In this document: piece after piece, positions 20,301 through 29,151 of the stretch
Position numbering within the stretch: the first letter of the stretch is position 1
Layout of the letters: each line of letters opens with the position of its first letter
DNA from: a virus
Taxonomy: Duplodnaviria > Heunggongvirae > Uroviricota > Caudoviricetes
IMG/VR virus record: IMGVR_UViG_2974615235_000001
Coordinates: 1,236-65,235 of that record
Strand: one strand, 5' to 3'
DNA length: 64,000 bases
Translations under genes and position numbers: made by a program
The notes under the pieces: model-generated
Databases searched by the model: none
What the model was told of the DNA's origin: nothing
Seen by the model: only the letters and a program-made list of their open reading frames with translations

Positions 20301-21664
20301 GTACTAGAAGCACGAGATTGAACTATAACCCAGAAGCTTCTCCTAATGAGGAGTGGTCATTGGAATATGACTTGTATACCACCAATGATTGGAATGGAAG
20401 TTCAGGTAACAGCAAGTTCAGGTTATCAGATGATCTCACCGGAGATTACTTAGCAGACGACCCTTTTGTGAACACAGGGGGAGGGTGGCTTAAAAGAGAG
20501 CATACTTTTACTTTCTCTAGCCCTGCAAGAGTAAATATCCAAATGTGGGCTAATCACACGACGGGTTTTCTTAGAATTACTAATATTAAACTTAGACGTA
20601 AGAAAGCAGGAAACCTTATAGTAGATGGTACTATCACAGCAACTCAGATAGCCGCCGAAGCGATTACTGCTACTAAGCTTAGTGCTGATGCCATAGATGG
20701 TAAACTCATTACAGGGACAATCCTACGCACTTCTGCAAGTACCTCTGTACCAAGAGTTGTTGTAGGCGACCCTTCCTTTCCTTTGTGGTATGGAACGGGG
20801 AATATTTCTACACAGAACATGGTGTTTGGGTTACTCTCTAACGGTACAGCCTATGCACAGAACCTTGTTATAGAGGATAACTCTGTGTTTAAAGGAAACC
20901 TTGTAGCAGCGAGTGGTACATTAGGAACTATAACTTCTGGAACTATCACAGGTACTACGATAAATGGTAACACTATAACAGGTGGTTCTATATCAGGTGC
21001 AACTATATCAGGTAATACTATTACAGGTGGGACTATAAGTGGTACTACTATTACAGGTACAACCGTTACAGGGGGTTTAATACGGACAGCTTCCTCTGGG
21101 TATAGGACAGAGCTTGACGATGGGACATACATGATATGGTCAGGTACTGGTACTAAGAATGACAGTAATGGTATATTCTGGGTTAAGAAGAATGGTACTG
21201 GTTTTATTAAAGGTGACTTCTTTCAAGGGGAAATTCTTGAAACTAAAACTGCTACGTTCTCTGATACAGCGAGTTCGTCAGGTAGTGCTTCTTTGACACA
21301 CAACTCTGCGGGTAAGGCTGTAACTATTAACACTCTTGGTACTTTAAACCTTGAAATGTCCGGAGACCAAAGAGACCAAGCAGGTAAGCTTCAGATAAGA
21401 GTGAGAGTAAAAAGAGGTAGCACTGTTATAGACAGCTATAACGACTATCCCTCTAATGTGGCATACTTGAATGAACCAGAAGCTAATATAAATAAAACCT
21501 TTTTCCGTTTCAGGTCATCTAATTTCTTTTTTGACACTACAACCTCGACAGGTGATAGAACTTACACCTTAGAGGTAGACTTCATAAACGGAGGGGCATC
21601 AGGGACTGTAGCTGTTCCTAATATAGGCGGTTCTATCAAAACCGAAGAAAACAAACTTGCATAG
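17372..21664 (+). CDS. long tail fiber protein (repeat-rich)
   Basis: 1430 aa; about 21-aa LDxLNNxxLP repeats, then about 40 copies of an 11-aa (A/G)N(S/T)ITxxxIxA repeat, then C-terminal TI(T/S)G heptad-like repeats. Confidence 0.7.
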   Translation: MAQFEITDFPEIATLTDEENFVFYVKRITDGQDYKIKLGNFQGLILDTVSGQGEDFIQQIVDQLLPDIESSFEQDLEDQVAEAIASERVQREIELKIDEILGEDFENPYTTIVAEVNSVIDNARTNKKFSKEITLVNNTLDVVNNEKLPALQEELDNLNNVVLPQVNATIAQVESDLATLNEVDLPELDTSLEALDDSLTTLNDVTLPALEGRLAQAEIELQNLNAVDLTVLQNELDQINEDLDTLNNTTLPALEATVQAVQDDLDNLDLTGLQNDLNAAQSDIDTLNNTTIPNINTTLGGLSTDLDNLNNVKLPEIDSTLGELENNLLDLSDELTLLDENTEELNEALYIVEDINSILENRQTLREQRKSSNVLGRDLDNLNQVVLPNVQETLEAARVDISTLNNTTIPSLQNSVRDTAASVDTLGDKFPITETDITDGAITTPKIATNAVTANEILAGTITSNEIAALTIIGQNILGETISADKLIANTITANEIASETITGNEIAANSVNADRLVANSITAAQIDAGTITANELSADSVDTLQLVTDSVIADKIASNAVTADKILAGSVTTNKLFSGAVTTDKLFAGAVTSEKIESRTIVAENIQLGTLTGNEIAVNSINADRIVANSIGANQIAANAITVDELASNSVTSVKIVSGAITTDKMTANTINGDRITANTLDASKIVAESISAREIAALSITGDLIKGNTIEGDKLVVNSISGDRITTNTLNGNKITAGTISADRLVANSITSGQLAANSVTASEIQAGSVSTDKMVANSINGDRITSNTLHADKIVAGTIGAREITANSITAGEIASLTITGNEIKGNSVHADKIIANTIGAREITANSITSDEIAANTIIGGNILGNTITGDKIKANQIDASHIQADAVEADAIKARVITGDKLAFETITGDLIAANTLTTKNLVVSDFENLTYGSDFEVAEEIPWDLSDPSIYVVNATNISQNALQFASEGSGTRSTRLNYNPEASPNEEWSLEYDLYTTNDWNGSSGNSKFRLSDDLTGDYLADDPFVNTGGGWLKREHTFTFSSPARVNIQMWANHTTGFLRITNIKLRRKKAGNLIVDGTITATQIAAEAITATKLSADAIDGKLITGTILRTSASTSVPRVVVGDPSFPLWYGTGNISTQNMVFGLLSNGTAYAQNLVIEDNSVFKGNLVAASGTLGTITSGTITGTTINGNTITGGSISGATISGNTITGGTISGTTITGTTVTGGLIRTASSGYRTELDDGTYMIWSGTGTKNDSNGIFWVKKNGTGFIKGDFFQGEILETKTATFSDTASSSGSASLTHNSAGKAVTINTLGTLNLEMSGDQRDQAGKLQIRVRVKRGSTVIDSYNDYPSNVAYLNEPEANINKTFFRFRSSNFFFDTTTSTGDRTYTLEVDFINGGASGTVAVPNIGGSIKTEENKLA

Positions 21665-21671
21665 GTGCTTT

Positions 21672-21995
21672 ATGAAATTACCTCTTTACGGAGGAGTCCT
21701 TTTAGGTCTTCTCCTTTTAACCACAGGATGTGAAGATAGTAAGCCTCTTGTAAAGAAAGACTTTGATAATACAGGGCAAGAATTAGTCTTAACTGTACAT
21801 ACATACGATTCTTTACAACAACTCAATAATAATGTACGTGAACCTGCTCTTGGTTTAAAAGGGCAAGCTTATTTACTAGGAAACGATTGTGAAATCAAAC
21901 TTTATGAACCTAAGTCATTGAGAGAAGATGATGAGTTTGCCCTTACATTAGGGCATGAACTTATGCACTGCCTCTATGGTAACTATCATAAATAA
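21672..21995 (+). CDS. small lipoprotein with HExxH motif (possible superinfection-exclusion lipoprotein)
   Basis: Signal peptide plus lipobox LLTTG|C; C-terminal GHELMHCLYGNYH; AGGTG RBS; the alternative ATG 21657 overlaps the fiber stop. Confidence 0.5.
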   Translation: MKLPLYGGVLLGLLLLTTGCEDSKPLVKKDFDNTGQELVLTVHTYDSLQQLNNNVREPALGLKGQAYLLGNDCEIKLYEPKSLREDDEFALTLGHELMHCLYGNYHK

Positions 21996-23136: not shown

Positions 23137-23724
23137 ATGCTTAAATTTATAGACGAAAACGACTTTTTATTAGTTGATACCTACAAAGAAAATGAAGATG
23201 GTTCTGTGTCATGGGTATATGACGAAGGGGAGGGGCTTCCTACACACTCTGGTGTTATCAGGGAAGGTTTCAAAAGGTTCACACAATACCCAGATGGCTC
23301 TGACAAGGAAATAGACGTATGGGCTAAGTTATGGGAACTACATAATGATGAACAAGTGTCTATCAATGTTCTTCCCGTAGACATACAACTTCTAAGAGAC
23401 AATGCTAAACAAGTGGTAAACTCTCAAAGAGATAGTCTTATCAACGGAGGGGTCTCTTTCAATGGACACACTTTCCAAACAGACGCTACCTCTATCATGG
23501 ATATGATGAGAGCAATCATGGCAGGGATAGACACTACATGGCTCACTGCTGATAACCAACAAGTCCCTATGACTAATGCAGGTATGGTAGCTCTAGGAGG
23601 CGCTGTAGCTGCCCACAAAGAGAGTTTAGTGTTTAAGGCAAGAGTACATAAGGACAACATTGAAAGTCTTGATACAAAGGCTGACATTGACGATTATGTA
23701 GCTACAATGTCTTGGGAGGACTAA
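23137..23724 (+). CDS. possible tail fiber assembly chaperone (hypothetical)
   Basis: 195 aa ORF following a fiber-like gene. Confidence 0.2.
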   Translation: MLKFIDENDFLLVDTYKENEDGSVSWVYDEGEGLPTHSGVIREGFKRFTQYPDGSDKEIDVWAKLWELHNDEQVSINVLPVDIQLLRDNAKQVVNSQRDSLINGGVSFNGHTFQTDATSIMDMMRAIMAGIDTTWLTADNQQVPMTNAGMVALGGAVAAHKESLVFKARVHKDNIESLDTKADIDDYVATMSWED

Positions 23725-24134
23725 TGCAAGTAATCCTAGGAACAAGTAATAGCATAGGGAGTCTAGCTATTAGACTCCACAACTTTAGTAAGTGGTCTCA
23801 TTGCGGAGTTATTATTAATAACAAAGTTATTGAGGCAACAGCAGGGCATGGGGTAGTTGAATCTACTCTAGAGTCTTTTAAGAGTCGCTATCCTAAATGG
23901 AAAATTATAGAAGTACCCCATAAAGGTGATTACCAGAAAAGGTTGTATGACCAAATAGGTAAGTCTTACGATTGGGGTGCTATCTTTAAGTTTGTCTTTA
24001 GAGGTGATTGGTCTGATACAGACAAATGGTTCTGTTATGAGTTAGCCGCTTATGCAAGTGGTGTATTGAATAATAAATATTTAGATAGGGTGACAGCCAC
24101 TCATCTATTAATGATAAGTGAGGAAGAAACGTAA
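23712..24134 (+). CDS. putative cell-wall hydrolase (permuted papain-like NlpC/P60-type fold); endolysin candidate
   Basis: 140 aa; His (..KWSHCG..) preceding a Cys in ..WFCYELAAY.. as in permuted NlpC/P60/YaeF-like enzymes; heads the lysis cassette. Confidence 0.3.
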   Translation: MGGLMQVILGTSNSIGSLAIRLHNFSKWSHCGVIINNKVIEATAGHGVVESTLESFKSRYPKWKIIEVPHKGDYQKRLYDQIGKSYDWGAIFKFVFRGDWSDTDKWFCYELAAYASGVLNNKYLDRVTATHLLMISEEET

Positions 24135-24511
24135 TGGCTATAAGCCCAGAGTTAGTATCTCTAGTATCTGCTGCTCTTGCTACAGGAAGTGGTGTAGGGA
24201 ATGTTTGGTTTTGGTATGACAAGAAGAAAGGCGATAAAGCGTCAGAAGCCTTCCAAAAGAAACTAGACTTGTTAGATACTTTAGTAGATGACCTAGCTAA
24301 ACAACAAGTAGAACACGATAATAAATTTATCACAGAAGAGCAGACAAGAAAACTTTTACAAGAGTATTTCGCTGAACTTAAACAATCTTGGTCAGACACT
24401 AATTCTGACGTTAAAGATATTAAAAATAACCTTATGGAGTTGACCATGCAATTAAGAGTTCTAAATGCTGTAAGGGATATAGAGAAAGAACTTACGACTA
24501 AGAAGGAATAA
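24134..24511 (+). CDS. membrane protein, single N-terminal TM plus coiled coil (holin/antiholin-like)
   Basis: 125 aa; hydrophobic N-terminus LVSLVSAALATGSGVGNVWFWY; ATGG overlap with upstream gene. Confidence 0.3.
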   Translation: MAISPELVSLVSAALATGSGVGNVWFWYDKKKGDKASEAFQKKLDLLDTLVDDLAKQQVEHDNKFITEEQTRKLLQEYFAELKQSWSDTNSDVKDIKNNLMELTMQLRVLNAVRDIEKELTTKKE

Positions 24512-24513
24512 CT

Positions 24514-24963
24514 ATGAAAGCCTTTATCGTAGATGATGACCCTATTACATTAACACTGGTTGCATTTATGCTTAATGAGGAGGGAGTAGAGACGCAGTAT
24601 TGTCTCTCTCCTGTTCCAGACAACCTCTATAAGGATATAGAGGAATTTCACCCTGACGTAATTATACTAGATATTTACTTAGAAAACGAAAGTGGTTTTG
24701 AAGTAGCTAAGAAGATACGTCAGAGTGAGAAGTTAAAAGATACACCTATTGTAGCTATATCAGGATCACATTCCGTAGAGGATAAACTACAAGCCTTTGT
24801 AACAGGGTTCATTGACTATATCCCTAAACCTTTCACTAAAGATGAGATACTCCAAACAGTGCGTAAATATGGTTACTCTAGTGAGATACTCAGATTGTGT
24901 GAAAGAATTAATAAAAGGGAGGAACTAGATCGTGAGTTATATTTTAAGTTTGATAAAGAATAG
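24514..24963 (+). CDS. stand-alone response-regulator receiver (CheY-like REC) domain protein
   Basis: 149 aa; complete REC signature: DDD (7-9), phospho-acceptor Asp in VIILDIY, Ser in AISGS, Lys in IPKPF; no output domain. Confidence 0.65.
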   Translation: MKAFIVDDDPITLTLVAFMLNEEGVETQYCLSPVPDNLYKDIEEFHPDVIILDIYLENESGFEVAKKIRQSEKLKDTPIVAISGSHSVEDKLQAFVTGFIDYIPKPFTKDEILQTVRKYGYSSEILRLCERINKREELDRELYFKFDKE

Positions 24964-25342
24964 GAAACTAGTTATAGGGATTGTTGTTGTAGGATTGCTA
25001 GGTATTAGTGCTTACTTAGGTTGGAATAGGTTAGAATCATCTATCTACCAAGAGGGTTACAGTGCTGCTGTAATAGAATACCAAGGTAAGCTACAAAAGG
25101 CCCAAAAGGAATATAATAGGGAAATTGAATATAAGCTTACACAACAAAGAACCTTACTCGCTCAGAGACATAAGAATGAGATGCGTAGGTTAGAAGCCGA
25201 ATCCGTGGTAGATAAAGAGGTTCAAACTGTCACAGAATACATAGAGGAAAAGATTTATGTTAAAGAAGAGTGCGATATTGTTCCTCCTGATCTTAACAGG
25301 ATGTTCAACAACTCCATCGACTCCATCAACGGAAGTAAATAA
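24932..25342 (+). CDS. i-spanin (Rz-like)
   Basis: 136 aa; N-terminal TM (LVIGIVVVGLLGISAYLGW) then charged coiled-coil periplasmic domain; the o-spanin is embedded in another frame. Confidence 0.6.
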   Translation: MSYILSLIKNRKLVIGIVVVGLLGISAYLGWNRLESSIYQEGYSAAVIEYQGKLQKAQKEYNREIEYKLTQQRTLLAQRHKNEMRRLEAESVVDKEVQTVTEYIEEKIYVKEECDIVPPDLNRMFNNSIDSINGSK

Positions 25343-25556
25343 GATTGATGAGAAGCTCCTAGAAGCCCCTATAAGCCCTTCTTTGTTAGTACCCTGTAGG
25401 GTAGCTTACCCTTTAAAGAGATATGCCTCTGAAGGCTCTCTCAGAGAGTTCTACGAGGTGTCTATATACAATCTAGGTCAGGTTAATAAATGCTACAATA
25501 AAGATGAGGCTTTAATAGAGGAAGTCAAGGAGAGGGATAATGTGGGGAAAGATTAA
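25257..25556 (+). CDS. o-spanin (Rz1-like outer-membrane lipoprotein)
   Basis: 99 aa; signal peptide plus lipobox LILTG|C; Pro/Ser/Thr-rich; starts inside the i-spanin gene in the +1 frame. Confidence 0.65.
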   Translation: MLKKSAILFLLILTGCSTTPSTPSTEVNKIDEKLLEAPISPSLLVPCRVAYPLKRYASEGSLREFYEVSIYNLGQVNKCYNKDEALIEEVKERDNVGKD

Positions 25557-25803
25557 AGAGTTCTTTACACACAAGTCTCTTAGAGAGTTAGCCACTACAT
25601 TGAATGCTTTCTGTATTGTAGAGATAGTTGTAATAGGGTTCTTCTCTTGGCAAGCTTACGACTTACTACAGTGGTATAAAGAGATCACTACTCCTGTCAC
25701 ATTTAACGCTACAGCATTTTGGGCTGCTATCAGTGGTATTGTTGCGGCAGTGTTTAGCGCATTGAAGTATATAAACCACACATATGAGGCTCGTAAGGAA
25801 TGA
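25540..25803 (+). CDS. holin candidate (two TM helices)
   Basis: 87 aa; two hydrophobic segments (FCIVEIVVIGFFSW; FWAAISGIVAAVFSAL); adjacent to spanins. Confidence 0.45.
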   Translation: MWGKIKEFFTHKSLRELATTLNAFCIVEIVVIGFFSWQAYDLLQWYKEITTPVTFNATAFWAAISGIVAAVFSALKYINHTYEARKE

Positions 25804-26033: not shown

Positions 26034-26593
26034 TGGCTACGATAATTAATCATTACATGAGCAAGATAACAGATTTATTCACTAAACAAGGCAGATCCGT
26101 AACAAGTCTTATAGAAAGCGGTGGATGGGTGTTTAAACAAATAGACACATACACGGAAGCGTCACCTCTTACAGTAGTACAAGGTAATAAGGTTAAACTT
26201 ACTATTCCTCTACAAGACGAAGGCTTCTTCCGTAGTAAATACTTTGAGCTGTCTTACGACTATACCTCACAGAAATTCACTCCTGTTACGGAAGATGATG
26301 TATACCTTGCTAACTTCAGAATGAAGGCTAAACCCTCTACACAGGCAGGTTATCTTAATTTCACTTTAGAATCTCCTAACGTTAGTTATAACCCTCTAAA
26401 TGGGGGAACACTTACATTCACAAAGAGCGCCAATGAAGAACATTTCTTCAGCCCAGATCTCACAGTTTTTATAGGGGAGGATGTAAGACAAAATGGAATA
26501 GAAGTTTGGGTAGAGGCAGTAGATTGTGATGTAGAAATTTATGATTATAGTTTTCTCATTACAAGACTGTTCAGCGATAAAAGGAATCCTTGA
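26033..26593 (+). CDS. hypothetical protein
   Basis: 186 aa ORF; ATGG overlap. Confidence 0.35.
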   Translation: MATIINHYMSKITDLFTKQGRSVTSLIESGGWVFKQIDTYTEASPLTVVQGNKVKLTIPLQDEGFFRSKYFELSYDYTSQKFTPVTEDDVYLANFRMKAKPSTQAGYLNFTLESPNVSYNPLNGGTLTFTKSANEEHFFSPDLTVFIGEDVRQNGIEVWVEAVDCDVEIYDYSFLITRLFSDKRNP

Positions 26594-27000
26594 TGGAATT
26601 ATTAAGACGATATTATGACGATAGGACAGAAGGTAAGTGGATATTCCCTGATGACTCTTATTGTTTCAATTTAGAGAGACCTTGGCTAAACAATAAAGTT
26701 AACGAGAGTTGCATTCCAGAGGGTACGTATATTGTATGCGAGGATTCGACAGGGAAACATCAGTGGTTTAAGTTTAAGGATGTACCTAATAGAACCTTCA
26801 TTGAAATGCACCCTGCATCTAAAGTTTCAGAGTTACTAGGGTGTCTAGCTCCTTGTATGGAACTCCGTAATGGGTATGCCTATCGTAATAAAGAAGCATT
26901 AATGAAATTCAAAGAATGGTTTCCTAATAAAGGTGAATGCTTCGTAGTTACGATTAGAAAATGGCATCCTAGAAGAGATGGTAAATGGAGAGAGGAATAA
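26590..27000 (+). CDS. hypothetical protein (Cys/His-rich, possible hydrolase)
   Basis: 136 aa ORF, last gene of the + strand block; followed by repeat element and terminator. Confidence 0.35.
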   Translation: MMELLRRYYDDRTEGKWIFPDDSYCFNLERPWLNNKVNESCIPEGTYIVCEDSTGKHQWFKFKDVPNRTFIEMHPASKVSELLGCLAPCMELRNGYAYRNKEALMKFKEWFPNKGECFVVTIRKWHPRRDGKWREE

Positions 27001-27077: not shown

Positions 27078-27112
27078 AGCCCCTCAGATTGCTCTGTAGG
27101 GGCTATTTTTAT
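27078..27112. terminator. bidirectional rho-independent terminator between convergent modules
   Basis: agcccct (27078-84) / aggggct (27098-104) stem followed by atttttattta; A-run upstream serves the opposite strand. Confidence 0.6.
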
Positions 27113-28617: not shown

Positions 28618-29151
28618 TTATTTCTCCTCTCTTGAAAATTTATGTCCTCTGTGAGTCTTTTGCTTTCCTTTAAGAACTGCGTGGACATTTCTCCAATCAA
28701 AACCTAAGTCTTTTAAATCTTGATTGCCGTAGCATTTTGCCACAAGATTGCCTCCCATGTCAAACACTTTTGTTACGAACTTAGAATTTCTCGCCTCTTT
28801 ACCGAAAGGGTTAGATATAAGACCTTCTCTTGTAGCATGTTCCATATTCTCTTTTCTAGTATTCCATTCTAGATTTTCTAGCATATTGTTCAGCCTATTA
28901 CCGTCTATGTGGTTGACCTCTGGTTTATTTTCAGGGTTAGGTATAAAAGCTTCAGCTACCATACGATGTACACTTCTAGAATATTTAACACGAGATACAC
29001 ATAACCTCACCCTATAGCAGTTAGTTTTGTGATGTTCTTGTGCAAGGATATGGCCTCTTTTATTTCTGACCTTACCTAGATTGCTTACCTCGTAATTTTC
29101 AGGGAATTCTAGGCTATCTTTCCACACCTCCTTAGTAAAGCTTTCCATCAT
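28618..29151 (-). CDS. HNH homing endonuclease (NUMOD/AP2-like DNA-binding region)
   Basis: 177 aa; ...YEVSNLGKVRN... N-terminal module, H-N-H core EVNHIDGNRLNNMLENLEW; inserted between nadV-like and prs-like genes. Confidence 0.65.
   Translation of the reverse strand: MMESFTKEVWKDSLEFPENYEVSNLGKVRNKRGHILAQEHHKTNCYRVRLCVSRVKYSRSVHRMVAEAFIPNPENKPEVNHIDGNRLNNMLENLEWNTRKENMEHATREGLISNPFGKEARNSKFVTKVFDMGGNLVAKCYGNQDLKDLGFDWRNVHAVLKGKQKTHRGHKFSREEK

What the first reader, a model, noticed from the sequence alone, without database searches (positions are those of the whole stretch)
24514..24963. Stand-alone CheY-like receiver domain encoded inside the lysis cassette
A 149-aa protein carries every hallmark of a phosphorylatable response-regulator receiver domain: an N-terminal acidic triad DDD, the phospho-acceptor Asp in ..VIILDIY.., a conserved Ser in AISGS and a Lys in IPKPF. 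It has no output domain. It lies between a TM/coiled-coil holin-like gene and the overlapping spanin pair, downstream of a hydrolase candidate. Phage-encoded single-domain response regulators are rare. Placement in the lysis module suggests coupling lysis timing to a host two-component or phosphorelay signal, or acting as a phosphate sink for one.
Basis: seen in the sequence. Interest (0 to 1): 0.75.

Follow-up and report, generated by a model that had tools for sequence, protein, structure and literature searches.

The report
Orphan receiver domain in phage lysis cassettes
A marine phage gene already published as "CheY-like" is a genuine phosphorylatable receiver domain that, in at least eight unrelated phage backbones, is always translationally coupled to a small membrane protein inside the host-lysis genes, which suggests an undescribed phospho-switch on lysis timing that has not been tested experimentally.

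Summary
Window 24514-24963 (+) encodes a 149-aa stand-alone receiver (Pfam Response_reg, 79 bits). The AlphaFold2 model (pLDDT 89) has the (beta/alpha)5 fold, all phospho-chemistry residues are present, and helix alpha5 continues for about 30 residues as in WspR.

The window is Alteromonas phage vB_AmeM_PT11-V22. The gene is ORF30, published in 2020 and 2023 as a CheY-like auxiliary metabolic gene, so the domain call is not new. The deposited name, "hybrid sensor histidine kinase", is wrong.

The context does appear to be new. ORF30 sits between an endolysin candidate (ORF28), a 1-TM protein (ORF29), an i-spanin and an unannotated o-spanin, and a 2-TM holin candidate. None of these is annotated as a lysis gene.

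The same pair (a 97-125-aa single-pass membrane protein with a predicted cytoplasmic helical domain, then a 132-153-aa receiver) recurs in myo-, N4-like, T7-like, sipho- and Mu-like phages. The pair abuts or overlaps by 1-8 nt, and four kinds of endolysin and several holins lie beside it. The receivers fall into at least three deep lineages. V22 has no kinase or Hpt, and no cellular genome has a close homolog.

Best reading (confidence about 0.45): a phospho-dependent cytoplasmic regulator of lysis timing. Function remains untested.

The parts
23724..24134 (+). ORF28 (QHZ59751), a permuted papain-like (C92 / NlpC-P60-like) amidase and the endolysin candidate of the cassette.
   Evidence: Weak Pfam Peptidase_C92 hit (19.7 bits, below the cut-off) and phrog_1128 at 1.2e-19. 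A homolog (27% identity, E 1e-20) occupies the slot directly after the receiver in the unrelated contig L024, in the order GTA_holin_3TM, 1-TM protein, receiver, this protein, TerS. That slot is filled by an endolysin in other lineages. The start follows the GenBank record; the ORF listing also offers a TTG at 23712.
24134..24511 (+). ORF29, a 125-aa single-pass membrane protein and the obligatory upstream partner of the receiver. It has a weakly hydrophobic N-terminal TM segment (GSGVGNVWFWY), then DKKKGDK, then a helical domain of about 95 aa predicted to be cytoplasmic.
   Evidence: It has no Pfam or PHROG family. There are no positive charges before the TM segment and a Lys/Arg cluster after it, so the positive-inside rule gives N-out/C-in. 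It is homologous to A5 gp10 (hhalign 98%). A partner of the same architecture precedes the receiver in every lineage examined. Its stop lies 2 nt before the ORF30 ATG. The AlphaFold2 model is all-helical but unreliable (pLDDT 50.8).
24514..24963 (+). ORF30 (QHZ59753), the finding itself: an orphan stand-alone receiver (REC) domain with a helix alpha5 extended by about 30 residues.
   Evidence: Median dN/dS is about 0.17 among V22-like phages (dS is near saturation).
24932..25342 (+). ORF31, the i-spanin candidate: KNRK, then a TM segment, then a periplasmic coiled coil.
   Evidence: It hits the Rz-like spanin families phrog_4297 at 7e-6 and phrog_1152/1403 weakly. Its homolog is A5 gp12. Its GTG start overlaps the end of ORF30 by 32 nt.
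25257..25556 (+). An unannotated 99-aa lipoprotein, the o-spanin candidate, which overlaps the 3' end of ORF31 in another frame.
   Evidence: It has the lipobox LLILTG|C. It hits phrog_2425 at 2.3e-7 and the Rz-like spanin families phrog_456/4719 weakly. It is conserved at 59-84% identity among the V22-like loci and is also present in the A5-like locus L007. It is absent from the GenBank annotation.
25540..25803 (+). ORF32, an 87-aa protein with two TM segments and the main holin candidate (class II-like).
   Evidence: TM segments lie at about residues 17-35 and 57-75. Its A5 homolog gp13 (42% identity) overlaps the start of the A5 endolysin gp14.
26590..27000 (+). ORF35, a DUF5675 protein and the last gene of the + strand late block. 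It may belong to the lysis region.
   Evidence: Pfam DUF5675 at 3.2e-17. It recurs a few genes after the receiver in V22-like loci and in the unrelated locus L108. It has no PDB sequence relative. Its role is unknown.
27091..27111 (+). A terminator-like hairpin with a T-run that closes the + strand late transcription unit.
   Evidence: This is a consensus match only.

Best explanation
ORF30 is an orphan receiver domain that can be phosphorylated. It has no kinase, Hpt or output domain of its own.

**Proposed role.** It is made late in infection, translationally coupled to the single-pass membrane protein ORF29. It acts as the cytoplasmic, phosphorylation-dependent regulatory subunit of the lysis apparatus.

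**Proposed steps.**
1. ORF29 inserts N-out/C-in, so its helical domain faces the cytoplasm.
2. The receiver docks on that domain, probably through the alpha4-beta5-alpha5 face and the protruding alpha5 helix.
3. Asp53 is phosphorylated by a host histidine kinase or Hpt protein, or by acetyl phosphate. This changes the association or oligomeric state.
4. That change delays or permits triggering of the holin (ORF32), so lysis time depends on the physiological state of the host.

In function this would be an antiholin-like or holin-accessory pair with a two-component-type input.

**Shown here.** The domain identity, the fold, the conserved catalytic residues, the gene order, the overlaps, the recurrence across backbones, the lack of a phage kinase and the lack of cellular orthologs.

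**Inferred.** The topology of ORF29, the ORF29-ORF30 contact, phosphorylation itself and any effect on lysis.
For: **1. It is a genuine receiver with its chemistry under selection.**
- Pfam scores 79 bits. The AlphaFold2 model has pLDDT 89.4 and the (beta/alpha)5 fold. Foldseek hits receivers at about 1e-10.
- The positions matching CheY D12, D13, D57, T87 (here Ser), Y106 and K109 are kept in all five cultured lineages, although these share only 19-30% identity.
- The DD pair, the Asp-site motif and the aromatic-x-x-Lys-Pro motif are also present in six further metagenomic members.

**2. The lysis context of V22 holds up.**
- Spanin PHROG hits support ORF31, the lipoprotein ORF has weaker spanin hits, and ORF32 has two TM segments.
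- In A5 the collinear block ends with an annotated endolysin.

**3. The pair recurs in unrelated backbones beside different lysis genes.**
- R9Y1, L026 and L106: 1-TM protein, receiver, GH108 lysozyme.
- L023 and L107: 1-TM protein, receiver, Amidase_3.
- L024: GTA_holin_3TM, 1-TM protein, receiver, ORF28-like amidase.
- L025 (Mu-like): Mor, 1-TM protein, receiver, a homolog of the A5 endolysin.
- R8W and H4/4 (T7-like): class II holin (phrog_1356), 1-TM protein, receiver, membrane protein (1-2 TM), TerS.
- PB15: XhlA-like tail-anchored protein (phrog_937 at 1.8e-16), receiver, endolysin (phrog_894), holin (phrog_3427).

**4. The genes are tightly coupled.**
- ATGA overlaps lie at both junctions of the receiver gene in R9Y1 and R8W and at the upstream junction in PB15, whose downstream junction also overlaps by 4 nt (TTGA).
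- The upstream junction overlaps by 1-8 nt in L023-L026, L107 and L108. It is a 1-2 nt gap in V22 and A5.

**5. Every partner places its soluble helical domain in the cytoplasm by the positive-inside rule.** This includes the inverted, tail-anchored PB15 partner. The receiver is also cytoplasmic.

**6. The extended alpha5 matches the WspR stalk helix.** TMq is 0.90-0.91 over 147-148 aligned columns with 3i5a and 3bre. In WspR that helix is a coiled-coil interaction element (from my own knowledge).

**7. The receiver is an orphan.**
- No other V22 ORF resembles any domain of 142 hybrid kinase or Hpt proteins (the make-up of the query set was verified).
- No kinase is annotated in the record.

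**8. The clade is phage-only.**
- Per-domain profile scores drop from at least 134 bits inside the clade to at most 79 bits for the best cellular receiver.
- Nothing in 185,579 species genomes exceeds 36% identity.
Against: - There is no experimental or structural evidence that ORF29 and ORF30 touch.
- There is no co-evolution signal. Pairwise identities of ORF29 and ORF30 across six V22-like phages correlate at only rho 0.17.
- The partner families are not demonstrably homologous across all lineages. hhalign gives 0.6% for the V22 type against the R8W/R9Y1 type, 2% against PB15, and 54% through the bridging sequence in L108.
- The receivers are not demonstrably monophyletic. Part of the recurrence could therefore reflect module exchange among phages of related hosts rather than independent selection.
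- Lysis genes usually follow tail-fibre genes, and this region is a known hot spot for horizontal transfer among Alteromonas phages (PMC10579305).
- The V22 lysis genes are assigned by architecture and weak PHROG hits. The endolysin is not established.
- No known antiholin or lysis regulator has this fold.
Confidence: 0.45

Rival explanations
1. It is an auxiliary or host-takeover gene with no specific tie to lysis. The receiver would act as a phosphate sink or decoy that drains or blocks a host two-component pathway (chemotaxis, Pho, envelope stress) late in infection. Its position next to lysis genes would only reflect where accessory genes accumulate at the end of the late operon. This is the published reading: a class II AMG in PMC7289586 and PMC10579305, and a 'PhoB' for low phosphate in PMC8228385.
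For: - It is a stand-alone receiver with intact phospho-acceptor chemistry and no output domain, as in known phosphate sinks (my own knowledge: CheY1 of Sinorhizobium meliloti).
- It has no phage kinase, so it must draw phosphate from the host.
- Its sequence evolves quickly (mean 59% identity against 66-75% for most neighbours), as expected for a protein that tracks host partners.
Against: - This reading does not explain why a small single-pass membrane protein always sits directly upstream, abutting or overlapping by 1-8 nt.
- It does not explain why the pair lies between holin, endolysin and spanin genes in many different backbones.
- The 'PhoB' reading fails because no DNA-binding domain is present (132-153 aa, receiver only).
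- It is not specifically related to CheY: 23% identity to E. coli CheY, and 22.9 bits with the clade profile.
- A sink role and a lysis role are not mutually exclusive.
Confidence: 0.25
2. It is an anti-defence decoy. The receiver would soak up phosphoryl groups from a host defence system built on two-component signalling, such as Detocs, in which the stand-alone receiver DtcB buffers the kinase DtcA. That would prevent abortive infection.
For: - DtcB is described as a stand-alone receiver that absorbs phosphate signals within Detocs (bioRxiv 10.1101/2023.01.24.525353). Detocs was characterised from Vibrio alginolyticus, a marine gammaproteobacterium.
- The phage receiver is an orphan with intact chemistry.
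Against: - ORF30 has no hit in PADLOC. The other phage receivers give only weak generic hits to SduA and PD-T4-6. I could not confirm that this PADLOC version holds Detocs models.
- Late expression, coupled to lysis genes, is poor timing for an inhibitor of an infection sensor.
- The conserved membrane partner is unexplained.
- I did not test whether Alteromonas hosts carry Detocs.
Confidence: 0.1
3. It is a scaffold that does not depend on phosphorylation. The receiver fold would be used only as a protein-binding module, for example a fixed cytoplasmic antiholin like T4 RIII or a chaperone for the membrane partner, with no signalling input.
For: - No kinase is present.
- Many receiver-fold proteins act without phosphorylation (my own knowledge).
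- Gene order and coupling fit a stoichiometric partner.
Against: - Pseudo-receivers typically lose the acidic pocket. Here the positions matching CheY D12, D13, D57, T87 (as Ser), Y106 and K109 are kept across lineages that share only about 20-30% identity.
- dN/dS is about 0.17.
Confidence: 0.12
4. It is a hitch-hiker in the tail-fibre or host-recognition module. The gene would persist only through linkage with the frequently exchanged tail fibre and chaperone genes, as proposed for V22, A5 and P24 in PMC10579305, and would have no role in lysis.
For: - V22 and A5 share the whole collinear block from gp24/gp25 to gp32.
- The tail fibres of A5 and R9Y1 share a segment of 33% identity.
Against: - In L024, L025 and L026 the pair is not next to tail-fibre genes. 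It lies after a holin, after Mor, or next to terminase genes.
- Purifying selection and conserved catalytic residues argue against a neutral passenger.
- The genes that stay constant next to the receiver are membrane and lysis genes, not fibres.
Confidence: 0.05

Closest known systems
Single-domain response regulators (CheY, DivK, Spo0F, CheY-type phosphate sinks)
   Same: It is a stand-alone (beta/alpha)5 receiver with the acidic pocket, the phospho-acceptor Asp, the Ser/Thr, the aromatic switch residue and the Lys all present. It has no enzymatic or DNA-binding output, so it must act through protein-protein contacts.
   Different: - It is phage-encoded, with no cognate kinase, Hpt or che genes.
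- It is only 23% identical to E. coli CheY.
- It carries a helix alpha5 extended by about 30 residues.
- It is genetically coupled to a small membrane protein and to lysis genes, not to a signalling operon.
WspR, NtrC1 and EutV-type receivers with a long alpha5 stalk
   Same: The best full-length structural matches are WspR 3i5a and 3bre (TMq 0.90-0.91, 147-148 aligned columns), with NtrC1 1ny5 and EutV also listed. The receiver continues directly into a long helix.
   Different: In those proteins the helix leads to a GGDEF, AAA+ or ANTAR output domain and forms a coiled coil between subunits (my own knowledge). Here the protein ends with the helix.
T4 RIII, a cytoplasmic antiholin, together with RI/T lysis inhibition
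   Same: The proposed role is the same: a small cytoplasmic protein encoded with the lysis genes that acts on the cytoplasmic part of a membrane lysis protein to set lysis time. The comparison with T4 rests on my own knowledge. T4 lysis inhibition is summarised in PMC12642591.
   Different: There is no sequence or fold similarity. RIII has no known phosphorylation input, and the T4 signal is periplasmic (RI). No lysis phenotype has been shown for ORF30.
N4 gp63 (class III pinholin with a cytoplasmic regulatory region) and gp62 (PMC12642591)
   Same: N4 gp63 is a single-TM lysis protein whose helical soluble domain is cytoplasmic, and lysis timing is thought to be set through that region. This is the same logic as proposed for ORF29 and its analogues. 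A5 is a schitovirus like N4.
   Different: The 'Receiver domain' in that paper is only a label for a conserved stretch of gp63, not a CheY-fold domain. N4 has no response-regulator-type protein in its cassette. No sequence similarity was tested or claimed.
XhlA of the Bacillus PBSX lysis cassette (xhlA-xhlB-xlyA)
   Same: The PB15 partner directly upstream of the receiver matches the XhlA-type PHROG (phrog_937 at 1.8e-16) and is tail-anchored with a cytoplasmic coiled coil. XhlA is a holin-accessory membrane protein (my own knowledge).
   Different: XhlA systems have no receiver gene. V22 ORF29 has the opposite arrangement (N-terminal TM segment) and no detectable similarity to XhlA.
Phage-encoded full-length response regulators (CtrA homologs in alphaproteobacterial phages, PMC9437464; PhoP/OmpR-type morons)
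   Same: These are phage-borne two-component parts. For CtrA the title of the paper proposes 'lytic deferment'.
   Different: Those proteins carry DNA-binding domains and act on transcription. Examples here are Stenotrophomonas phage Bhz63 phoP (239 aa, followed by a gene with a PRK11100-superfamily match, which I take to be kinase-like) and Burkholderia phage E427 (229 aa). ORF30 has no DNA-binding domain and sits inside the lysis genes.

Membership tests
Response regulator receiver domain (Pfam PF00072, CheY-like superfamily) | The profile match exceeds the curated cut-off over the whole domain. | tested here: met
   79.1 bits against a cut-off of 30.2, covering profile positions 2-111 of 111.
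Response regulator receiver domain (Pfam PF00072, CheY-like superfamily) | A (beta/alpha)5 doubly wound fold. | tested here: met
   AlphaFold2 pLDDT 89.4, with elements in the order b1 a1 b2 a2 b3 a3 b4 a4 b5 a5. Foldseek TM is about 0.9 to PhoB, VicR, RR468 and CheY4.
Response regulator receiver domain (Pfam PF00072, CheY-like superfamily) | The active-site quintet: an acidic pair, the phospho-acceptor Asp, a Ser/Thr and a Lys. | tested here: met
   D7/D8, D53, S83 and K105, plus Y102. These are invariant in 16 clade members and conserved in the other phage lineages.
Response regulator receiver domain (Pfam PF00072, CheY-like superfamily) | Actual phosphorylation on the Asp. | not testable with these tools
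   This needs an acetyl-phosphate or kinase assay, or Phos-tag analysis.
CheY proper (chemotaxis regulator) | Orthology to CheY and a link to che or flagellar-switch genes. | tested here: not met
   It is 23% identical to E. coli CheY. CheY scores 22.9 bits with the clade profile, against up to 79 bits for other cellular receivers. The neighbouring genes are lysis genes.
Hybrid sensor histidine kinase (the name in the GenBank record) | HisKA/DHp and HATPase_c domains. | tested here: not met
   The protein is 149 aa and the only Pfam family above its cut-off is Response_reg. No V22 ORF matches the kinase or Hpt parts of 142 hybrid kinases.
PhoB/OmpR-type DNA-binding response regulator (the name given to the R8W and H4/4 homologs) | A C-terminal winged-helix Trans_reg_C domain. 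| tested here: not met
   The proteins are 132-153 aa. After alpha5 there is only a helical tail of about 30 residues.
Antiholin / lysis-timing regulator (a functional class, e.g. T4 RI/RIII, lambda S107, P1 LydB) | Encoded within the lysis gene cluster. | tested here: met
Antiholin / lysis-timing regulator (a functional class, e.g. T4 RI/RIII, lambda S107, P1 LydB) | It changes holin triggering time and binds a holin. | not testable with these tools
   This needs genetics or biochemistry. No multimer structure prediction was available.
Antiholin / lysis-timing regulator (a functional class, e.g. T4 RI/RIII, lambda S107, P1 LydB) | Sequence similarity to a described antiholin family. | tested here: not met
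   The PHROG hits of ORF30 are all to receiver-containing families of 'unknown function'. ORF29 has none.
Detocs DtcB-like buffer receiver (anti-defence decoy) | Similarity to DtcB profiles, and a host that carries Detocs. | tested here: inconclusive
   ORF30 has no PADLOC hit at E <= 0.01. I could not confirm that PADLOC 2.0.0 includes Detocs models, and host genomes were not examined.
DHp / Hpt-like phosphotransfer partner (an idea for ORF29) | A conserved His in a helical hairpin, with HisKA or Hpt profile similarity. | tested here: not met
   There is no HisKA or Hpt hit even at E < 5. H61 is invariant in V22-like proteins, but it is not in register in the hhalign alignment with A5 gp10. 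The fold model is unreliable.

The most novel reading that the evidence does not exclude
A mobile two-gene module makes holin triggering answer to the phosphorylation state of the infected cell. The module is a single-pass membrane protein with a cytoplasmic helical domain plus an orphan receiver domain. It has been recruited, possibly more than once, into the lysis cassettes of myo-, sipho-, T7-like, N4-like and Mu-like marine phages. The phosphate would come from host kinases or from acetyl phosphate. This would be a phospho-switchable antiholin, and the first direct link between two-component chemistry and phage lysis timing or lysis inhibition.
Probability: 0.35. Interest if true: 0.85.

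Novelty: new variant of a known kind. Interest (0 to 1): 0.62.

Why it matters
Lysis timing sets burst size and phage fitness. The known controls are holin-intrinsic clocks, dual-start antiholins and the T4 and N4 superinfection signals. No known lysis regulator reads a cytoplasmic phosphorylation signal.

If the receiver and its membrane partner tune holin triggering, marine phages of a feast-and-famine copiotroph would have a way to match lysis to host energy or nutrient status. That would bear on models of the viral shunt, and it would supply a compact, portable, phospho-controlled lysis switch for synthetic biology.

The work also has annotation consequences:
- It corrects three published or deposited names ('hybrid sensor histidine kinase', 'PhoB', 'DNA-binding response regulator').
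- It questions the AMG label.
- It assigns the previously unannotated lysis cassette of V22 and A5, including a missing o-spanin gene.

The claim can be tested directly, because V22, A5, R8W and R9Y1 are all cultured phages.

Tried and rejected
1. **ORF29 as a minimal DHp or Hpt phosphotransfer protein.**
   - A single His in the motif KxQ(V/I)EH is invariant in V22-like proteins.
   - Against this, there are no HisKA or Hpt hits even at E < 5, and the His is out of register with A5 in hhalign.
   - The AlphaFold2 model is unusable (pLDDT 50.8). Rejected as unsupported.
2. **Homology of all upstream partners.**
   - The V22 type and the A5 type are homologous (98%).
   - The V22 type against the R8W/R9Y1 type gives 0.6%, and against PB15 gives 2%.
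   - The bridging sequence in L108 gives 54% to the V22 type and 97.7% to the R8W type.
   - The partners therefore share an architecture, but common ancestry is not shown.
3. **Monophyly of the phage receivers.** With the V22 profile, R9Y1-type domains score 66-70 bits, R8W 50 and PB15 46. All lie inside the range of cellular receivers (up to 79 bits). Monophyly is not supported.
4. **Mirror-tree co-evolution of ORF29 and ORF30.** Rho is 0.17 over 15 pairs, so there is no signal.
5. **The exhaustive representative search.**
   - The ranking was swamped by multi-receiver hybrid kinases, because whole-protein scores are summed.
   - It still showed that the V22/A5 clade makes up only four clusters at 50% identity.
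6. **PB15-type receiver in IMG/VR.** No relatives were found.
7. **Promoter scan of 21.5-27.3 kb.** The count was no higher than in shuffled sequence (14 against 14.2), so no separate promoter for the cassette can be claimed.
8. **PDB sequence searches for ORF28 and ORF35.** Nothing useful was found.
9. **The N4 lysis preprint.** Its 'Receiver domain' turned out to be a label for a region of gp63, not a CheY fold.
10. **Other phage response regulators.** Those in Burkholderia phage E427 and Stenotrophomonas phage Bhz63 are full-length regulators in non-lysis contexts, which is a different kind of gene.
Full report
**What the sequence is.** The window matches Alteromonas phage vB_AmeM_PT11-V22 at 100% identity over the 4-kb segment tested (MN877442.1 / NC_048847.1; window coordinate = record coordinate minus 1235). 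V22 is a 92.8-kb marine myovirus. The ORF at 24514-24963 (+) is its ORF30 (QHZ59753.1), deposited as 'hybrid sensor histidine kinase - response regulator'.

Two papers from the group that isolated the phage list it as a CheY-like class II auxiliary metabolic gene (PMC7289586; PMC10579305). The second paper notes that gp29-gp32 of V22 are homologous to gp10-gp13 of the schitovirus A5. It calls gp29, gp31 and gp32 'functions unknown' and treats the block as part of a shared host-recognition module. Neither paper mentions a holin, endolysin or spanin. The domain identification is therefore already known. The lysis context is not discussed in any paper I could search.

**Check of the observation.** It is confirmed in every detail.
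- The ORF is 149 aa.
- Pfam Response_reg scores 79.1 bits over the full profile.
- D7/D8/D9, D53, S83, Y102 and K105 align with CheY D12/D13, D57, T87, Y106 and K109.
- These residues are invariant in 16 relatives of 52-94% identity.
- AlphaFold2 gives a confident (beta/alpha)5 model (pLDDT 89.4). Foldseek finds receiver domains at about 1e-10.

One addition: helix alpha5 does not stop at the end of the domain but runs on to residue 147. The best full-length structural matches are WspR (3i5a, 3bre; TMq about 0.9), NtrC1 and EutV, whose receivers continue into a stalk helix. The deposited name is wrong, because there is no HisKA or HATPase_c domain.

**The surroundings in V22.** The + strand late block ends with these genes:
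- ORF28: a permuted papain-like amidase (weak C92 hit, phrog_1128).
- ORF29: 125 aa, with an N-terminal Gly/Ala/Ser-rich TM segment, then DKKKGDK, then a helical domain.
- ORF30: the receiver.
- ORF31: KNRK, a TM segment and a coiled coil, with Rz-like spanin PHROG hits.
- An unannotated 99-aa lipoprotein that overlaps the end of ORF31 (lipobox LLILTGC, weak spanin PHROG hits).
- ORF32: 87 aa with two TM segments.
- ORF33 and ORF34.
- ORF35: DUF5675.
- A terminator-like hairpin.

In A5 the collinear block runs gp10 (1-TM protein), gp11 (receiver, 44% identity), gp12 (i-spanin-like), an o-spanin-like ORF, gp13 (two TM segments) and then gp14, annotated as the endolysin. The main holin candidate is the 2-TM protein ORF32, not ORF29.

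**The wider pattern, which is the main result.**
- Close relatives of ORF30 form a tight clade. There are 15 clusters at 90% identity, all 147-150 aa and single-domain. Among 1.84 billion representatives they make up only four clusters at 50% identity.
- Profile scores are at least 134 bits inside the clade and at most 79 bits for the best cellular receiver domain.
- No species-representative bacterial or archaeal genome encodes anything above 36% identity.
- In every V22-like or A5-like contig examined, the order ORF28-29-30-31-oSp-32 is kept.

Other Alteromonas phages of different morphotypes, and several uncultured phage contigs, carry a divergent stand-alone receiver (19-30% identity to V22) in the same kind of place:

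| Phage or contig | Gene order around the receiver |
|---|---|
| R9Y1-3, L017-L020, L106 (siphoviruses) | tail fibre, 1-TM protein (120-121 aa), receiver (150 aa), GH108 lysozyme, 75-aa protein |
| L026 | 1-TM protein, receiver, GH108, then a 2-TM protein |
| L023, L107 | tail-fibre assembly protein, 1-TM protein, receiver, Amidase_3 |
| L024 | GTA_holin_3TM, 1-TM protein, receiver, homolog of V22 ORF28 (E 1e-20), TerS |
| L025 (Mu-like) | Mor, 1-TM protein, receiver, homolog of the A5 endolysin (E 3e-7), 2-TM protein |
| R8W, H4/4 (T7-like Foturvirus) | tail fibre, class II holin (phrog_1356), 1-TM protein, receiver, membrane protein (1-2 TM), TerS |
| PB15 | XhlA-type tail-anchored protein (phrog_937 at 1.8e-16), receiver, endolysin (phrog_894 at 1.6e-31), holin (phrog_3427 at 2.6e-40) |
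| L108 | 1-TM protein, receiver, SASA-domain protein, DUF5675 |

The R8W/R9Y1-type clade holds about 37 clusters of 139-153 aa on contigs of 35-58 kb.

The gene junctions are tight:
- ATGA overlaps lie on both sides of the receiver gene in R9Y1 and R8W.
- PB15 has an ATGA overlap upstream and a 4-nt TTGA overlap downstream.
- The upstream junction overlaps by 1-8 nt in the metagenomic cases.
- In V22 and A5 the upstream gap is 1-2 nt.

All phospho-chemistry positions are kept in all lineages.

In every case the soluble helical domain of the partner is predicted to be cytoplasmic by the positive-inside rule. This holds for the N-terminally anchored partners and for the tail-anchored PB15 partner.

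**What this does and does not show.** It shows a conserved, translationally coupled pair embedded among different holins, spanins and four kinds of endolysin in at least eight backbones.

It does not show common ancestry of all pairs. The receivers fall into at least three deep lineages that are no closer to each other than to cellular receivers. The partners are homologous within the V22/A5 group and within the R8W/R9Y1/L023-L026/L108 group. Between these groups the link is at best weak.

Either way the linkage points to function. Independent recruitment would mean convergence, and ancient divergence would mean linkage kept through turnover of the neighbouring genes. Some of the recurrence could still reflect module exchange among phages that share hosts (PMC10579305).

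V22 encodes no kinase or Hpt. Only ORF30 matches any domain of 142 hybrid kinases, and that query set was verified to contain HisKA, HATPase_c and Hpt domains. The phosphodonor must therefore be a host protein or a small molecule.

**Most likely mechanism (confidence about 0.45).** The pair is an accessory regulator of lysis timing.
- The membrane protein presents a cytoplasmic helical domain.
- The receiver binds it through its alpha4-beta5-alpha5 face and extended alpha5.
- Phosphorylation of D53, by host kinases, Hpt proteins or acetyl phosphate, alters that complex and so alters holin triggering.

The closest functional analogues are the cytoplasmic antiholin RIII of T4 (my own knowledge) and the proposed cytoplasmic regulation of the single-TM pinholin gp63 of N4 (PMC12642591). 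XhlA of PBSX is a precedent for a small accessory membrane protein with a cytoplasmic coiled coil in a lysis cassette. The PB15 partner belongs to that PHROG.

Shown: the identity, fold, residues, linkage, coupling, orphan status and phage-only distribution. Inferred: the topology, the contact, phosphorylation and the effect on lysis.

**Rival explanations.**
- The published AMG or phosphate-sink reading (0.25) fits an output-less orphan receiver. It does not explain the obligatory membrane partner or the position between lysis genes.
- A Detocs-type anti-defence decoy (0.10) is conceivable. It has no support from PADLOC, and late, lysis-coupled expression is poor timing for it.
- A phosphorylation-independent scaffold (0.12) is disfavoured by the strict conservation of the active site over about 20-30% identity.
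- A pure hitch-hiker in the tail-fibre module (0.05) is contradicted by contexts that lack fibres.

**Negative or weak results.**
- The AlphaFold2 model of ORF29 is poor.
- There is no HisKA or Hpt similarity in ORF29.
- There is no mirror-tree signal between ORF29 and ORF30.
- Promoter-like sites are not enriched.
- ORF29, ORF30 and ORF31 are the fastest-diverging genes of the block (mean identity 58, 59 and 50%, against 66-75% for the others). They remain under purifying selection (median dN/dS 0.15-0.32, with dS near saturation).

**Verdict.** What appears to be new is the recognition that this receiver, with its membrane partner, is a conserved component of lysis cassettes across many marine phage lineages. 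I rate it a new variant of a known kind: a lysis accessory regulator built from a two-component receiver. Interest is 0.62. Function is unproven but directly testable in cultured phages.

Noticed in passing
window 25257-25556 (+): This 99-aa lipoprotein ORF (lipobox LLILTG|C) overlaps the 3' end of ORF31 in another frame. It is an o-spanin candidate. It is missing from the GenBank annotation of V22, which shows a gap between ORF31 and ORF32. It is conserved in all V22-like loci and in the A5-like locus L007.
   Followed up: partly
window 21657-21995 (+), ORF25: This small lipoprotein (LLLLTTG|C) carries an HExxH motif (LGHELMHCLYGNYH) and is 51% identical to A5 gp7. It looks like a Zn-metallopeptidase-like lipoprotein encoded between the central fibre and the tail fibre. 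It has no Pfam hit.
   Followed up: no
window 26590-27000 (+), ORF35; also L008 7874-8275, L009 7530-7928, L010 5024-5419, L108 5104-5508: A DUF5675 protein recurs a few genes downstream of the receiver, both in V22-like phages and in the unrelated contig L108. It may be a lysis-related enzyme. It has no PDB sequence relative.
   Followed up: partly
L015 4489-4887 (Alteromonas phage PB15, KX982260): The annotated start of the PB15 'response regulator' (APC46578) cuts off strand beta1. An in-frame ATG 21 nt upstream gives MKKRVFVMDD..., which restores the domain and creates an ATGA overlap with the XhlA-like gene upstream.
   Followed up: yes
L013 4501-4962 and L014 4501-4962 (phages R8W and H4/4): These proteins are annotated, and discussed in PMC8228385, as 'PhoB / DNA-binding response regulator' and as an adaptation to low phosphate. 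They are 153 aa, consist of a receiver plus a helical tail, and have no DNA-binding domain.
   Followed up: yes
window 24134-25342 compared with L004, L006, L008, L009, L010: ORF29, ORF30 and ORF31 are the fastest-diverging genes of the block among V22-like phages (mean amino-acid identity 58, 59 and 50%). ORF27, ORF28, the o-spanin candidate, ORF32, ORF33 and ORF35 average about 65-75%. This suggests mosaic exchange or faster adaptation of the regulator and i-spanin genes.
   Followed up: partly
window ~28618-29151 (-), ORF37; L010 7131-7661: An HNH homing endonuclease lies between the nicotinate phosphoribosyltransferase and ribose-phosphate pyrophosphokinase genes in V22 and L010. It is absent from the same position in L008 and L009, so it is a mobile insertion.
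   Followed up: no
L108 2711-3004: The 1-TM partner in L108 combines a V22-like TM motif (GSGVFGWFWF, compared with GSGVGNVWFWY) with the R8W-type C-terminal motif (RMDSLMLHLM). By hhalign it is 97.7% to the R8W type and 54% to the V22 type. It may be an evolutionary bridge between the two partner families.
   Followed up: partly
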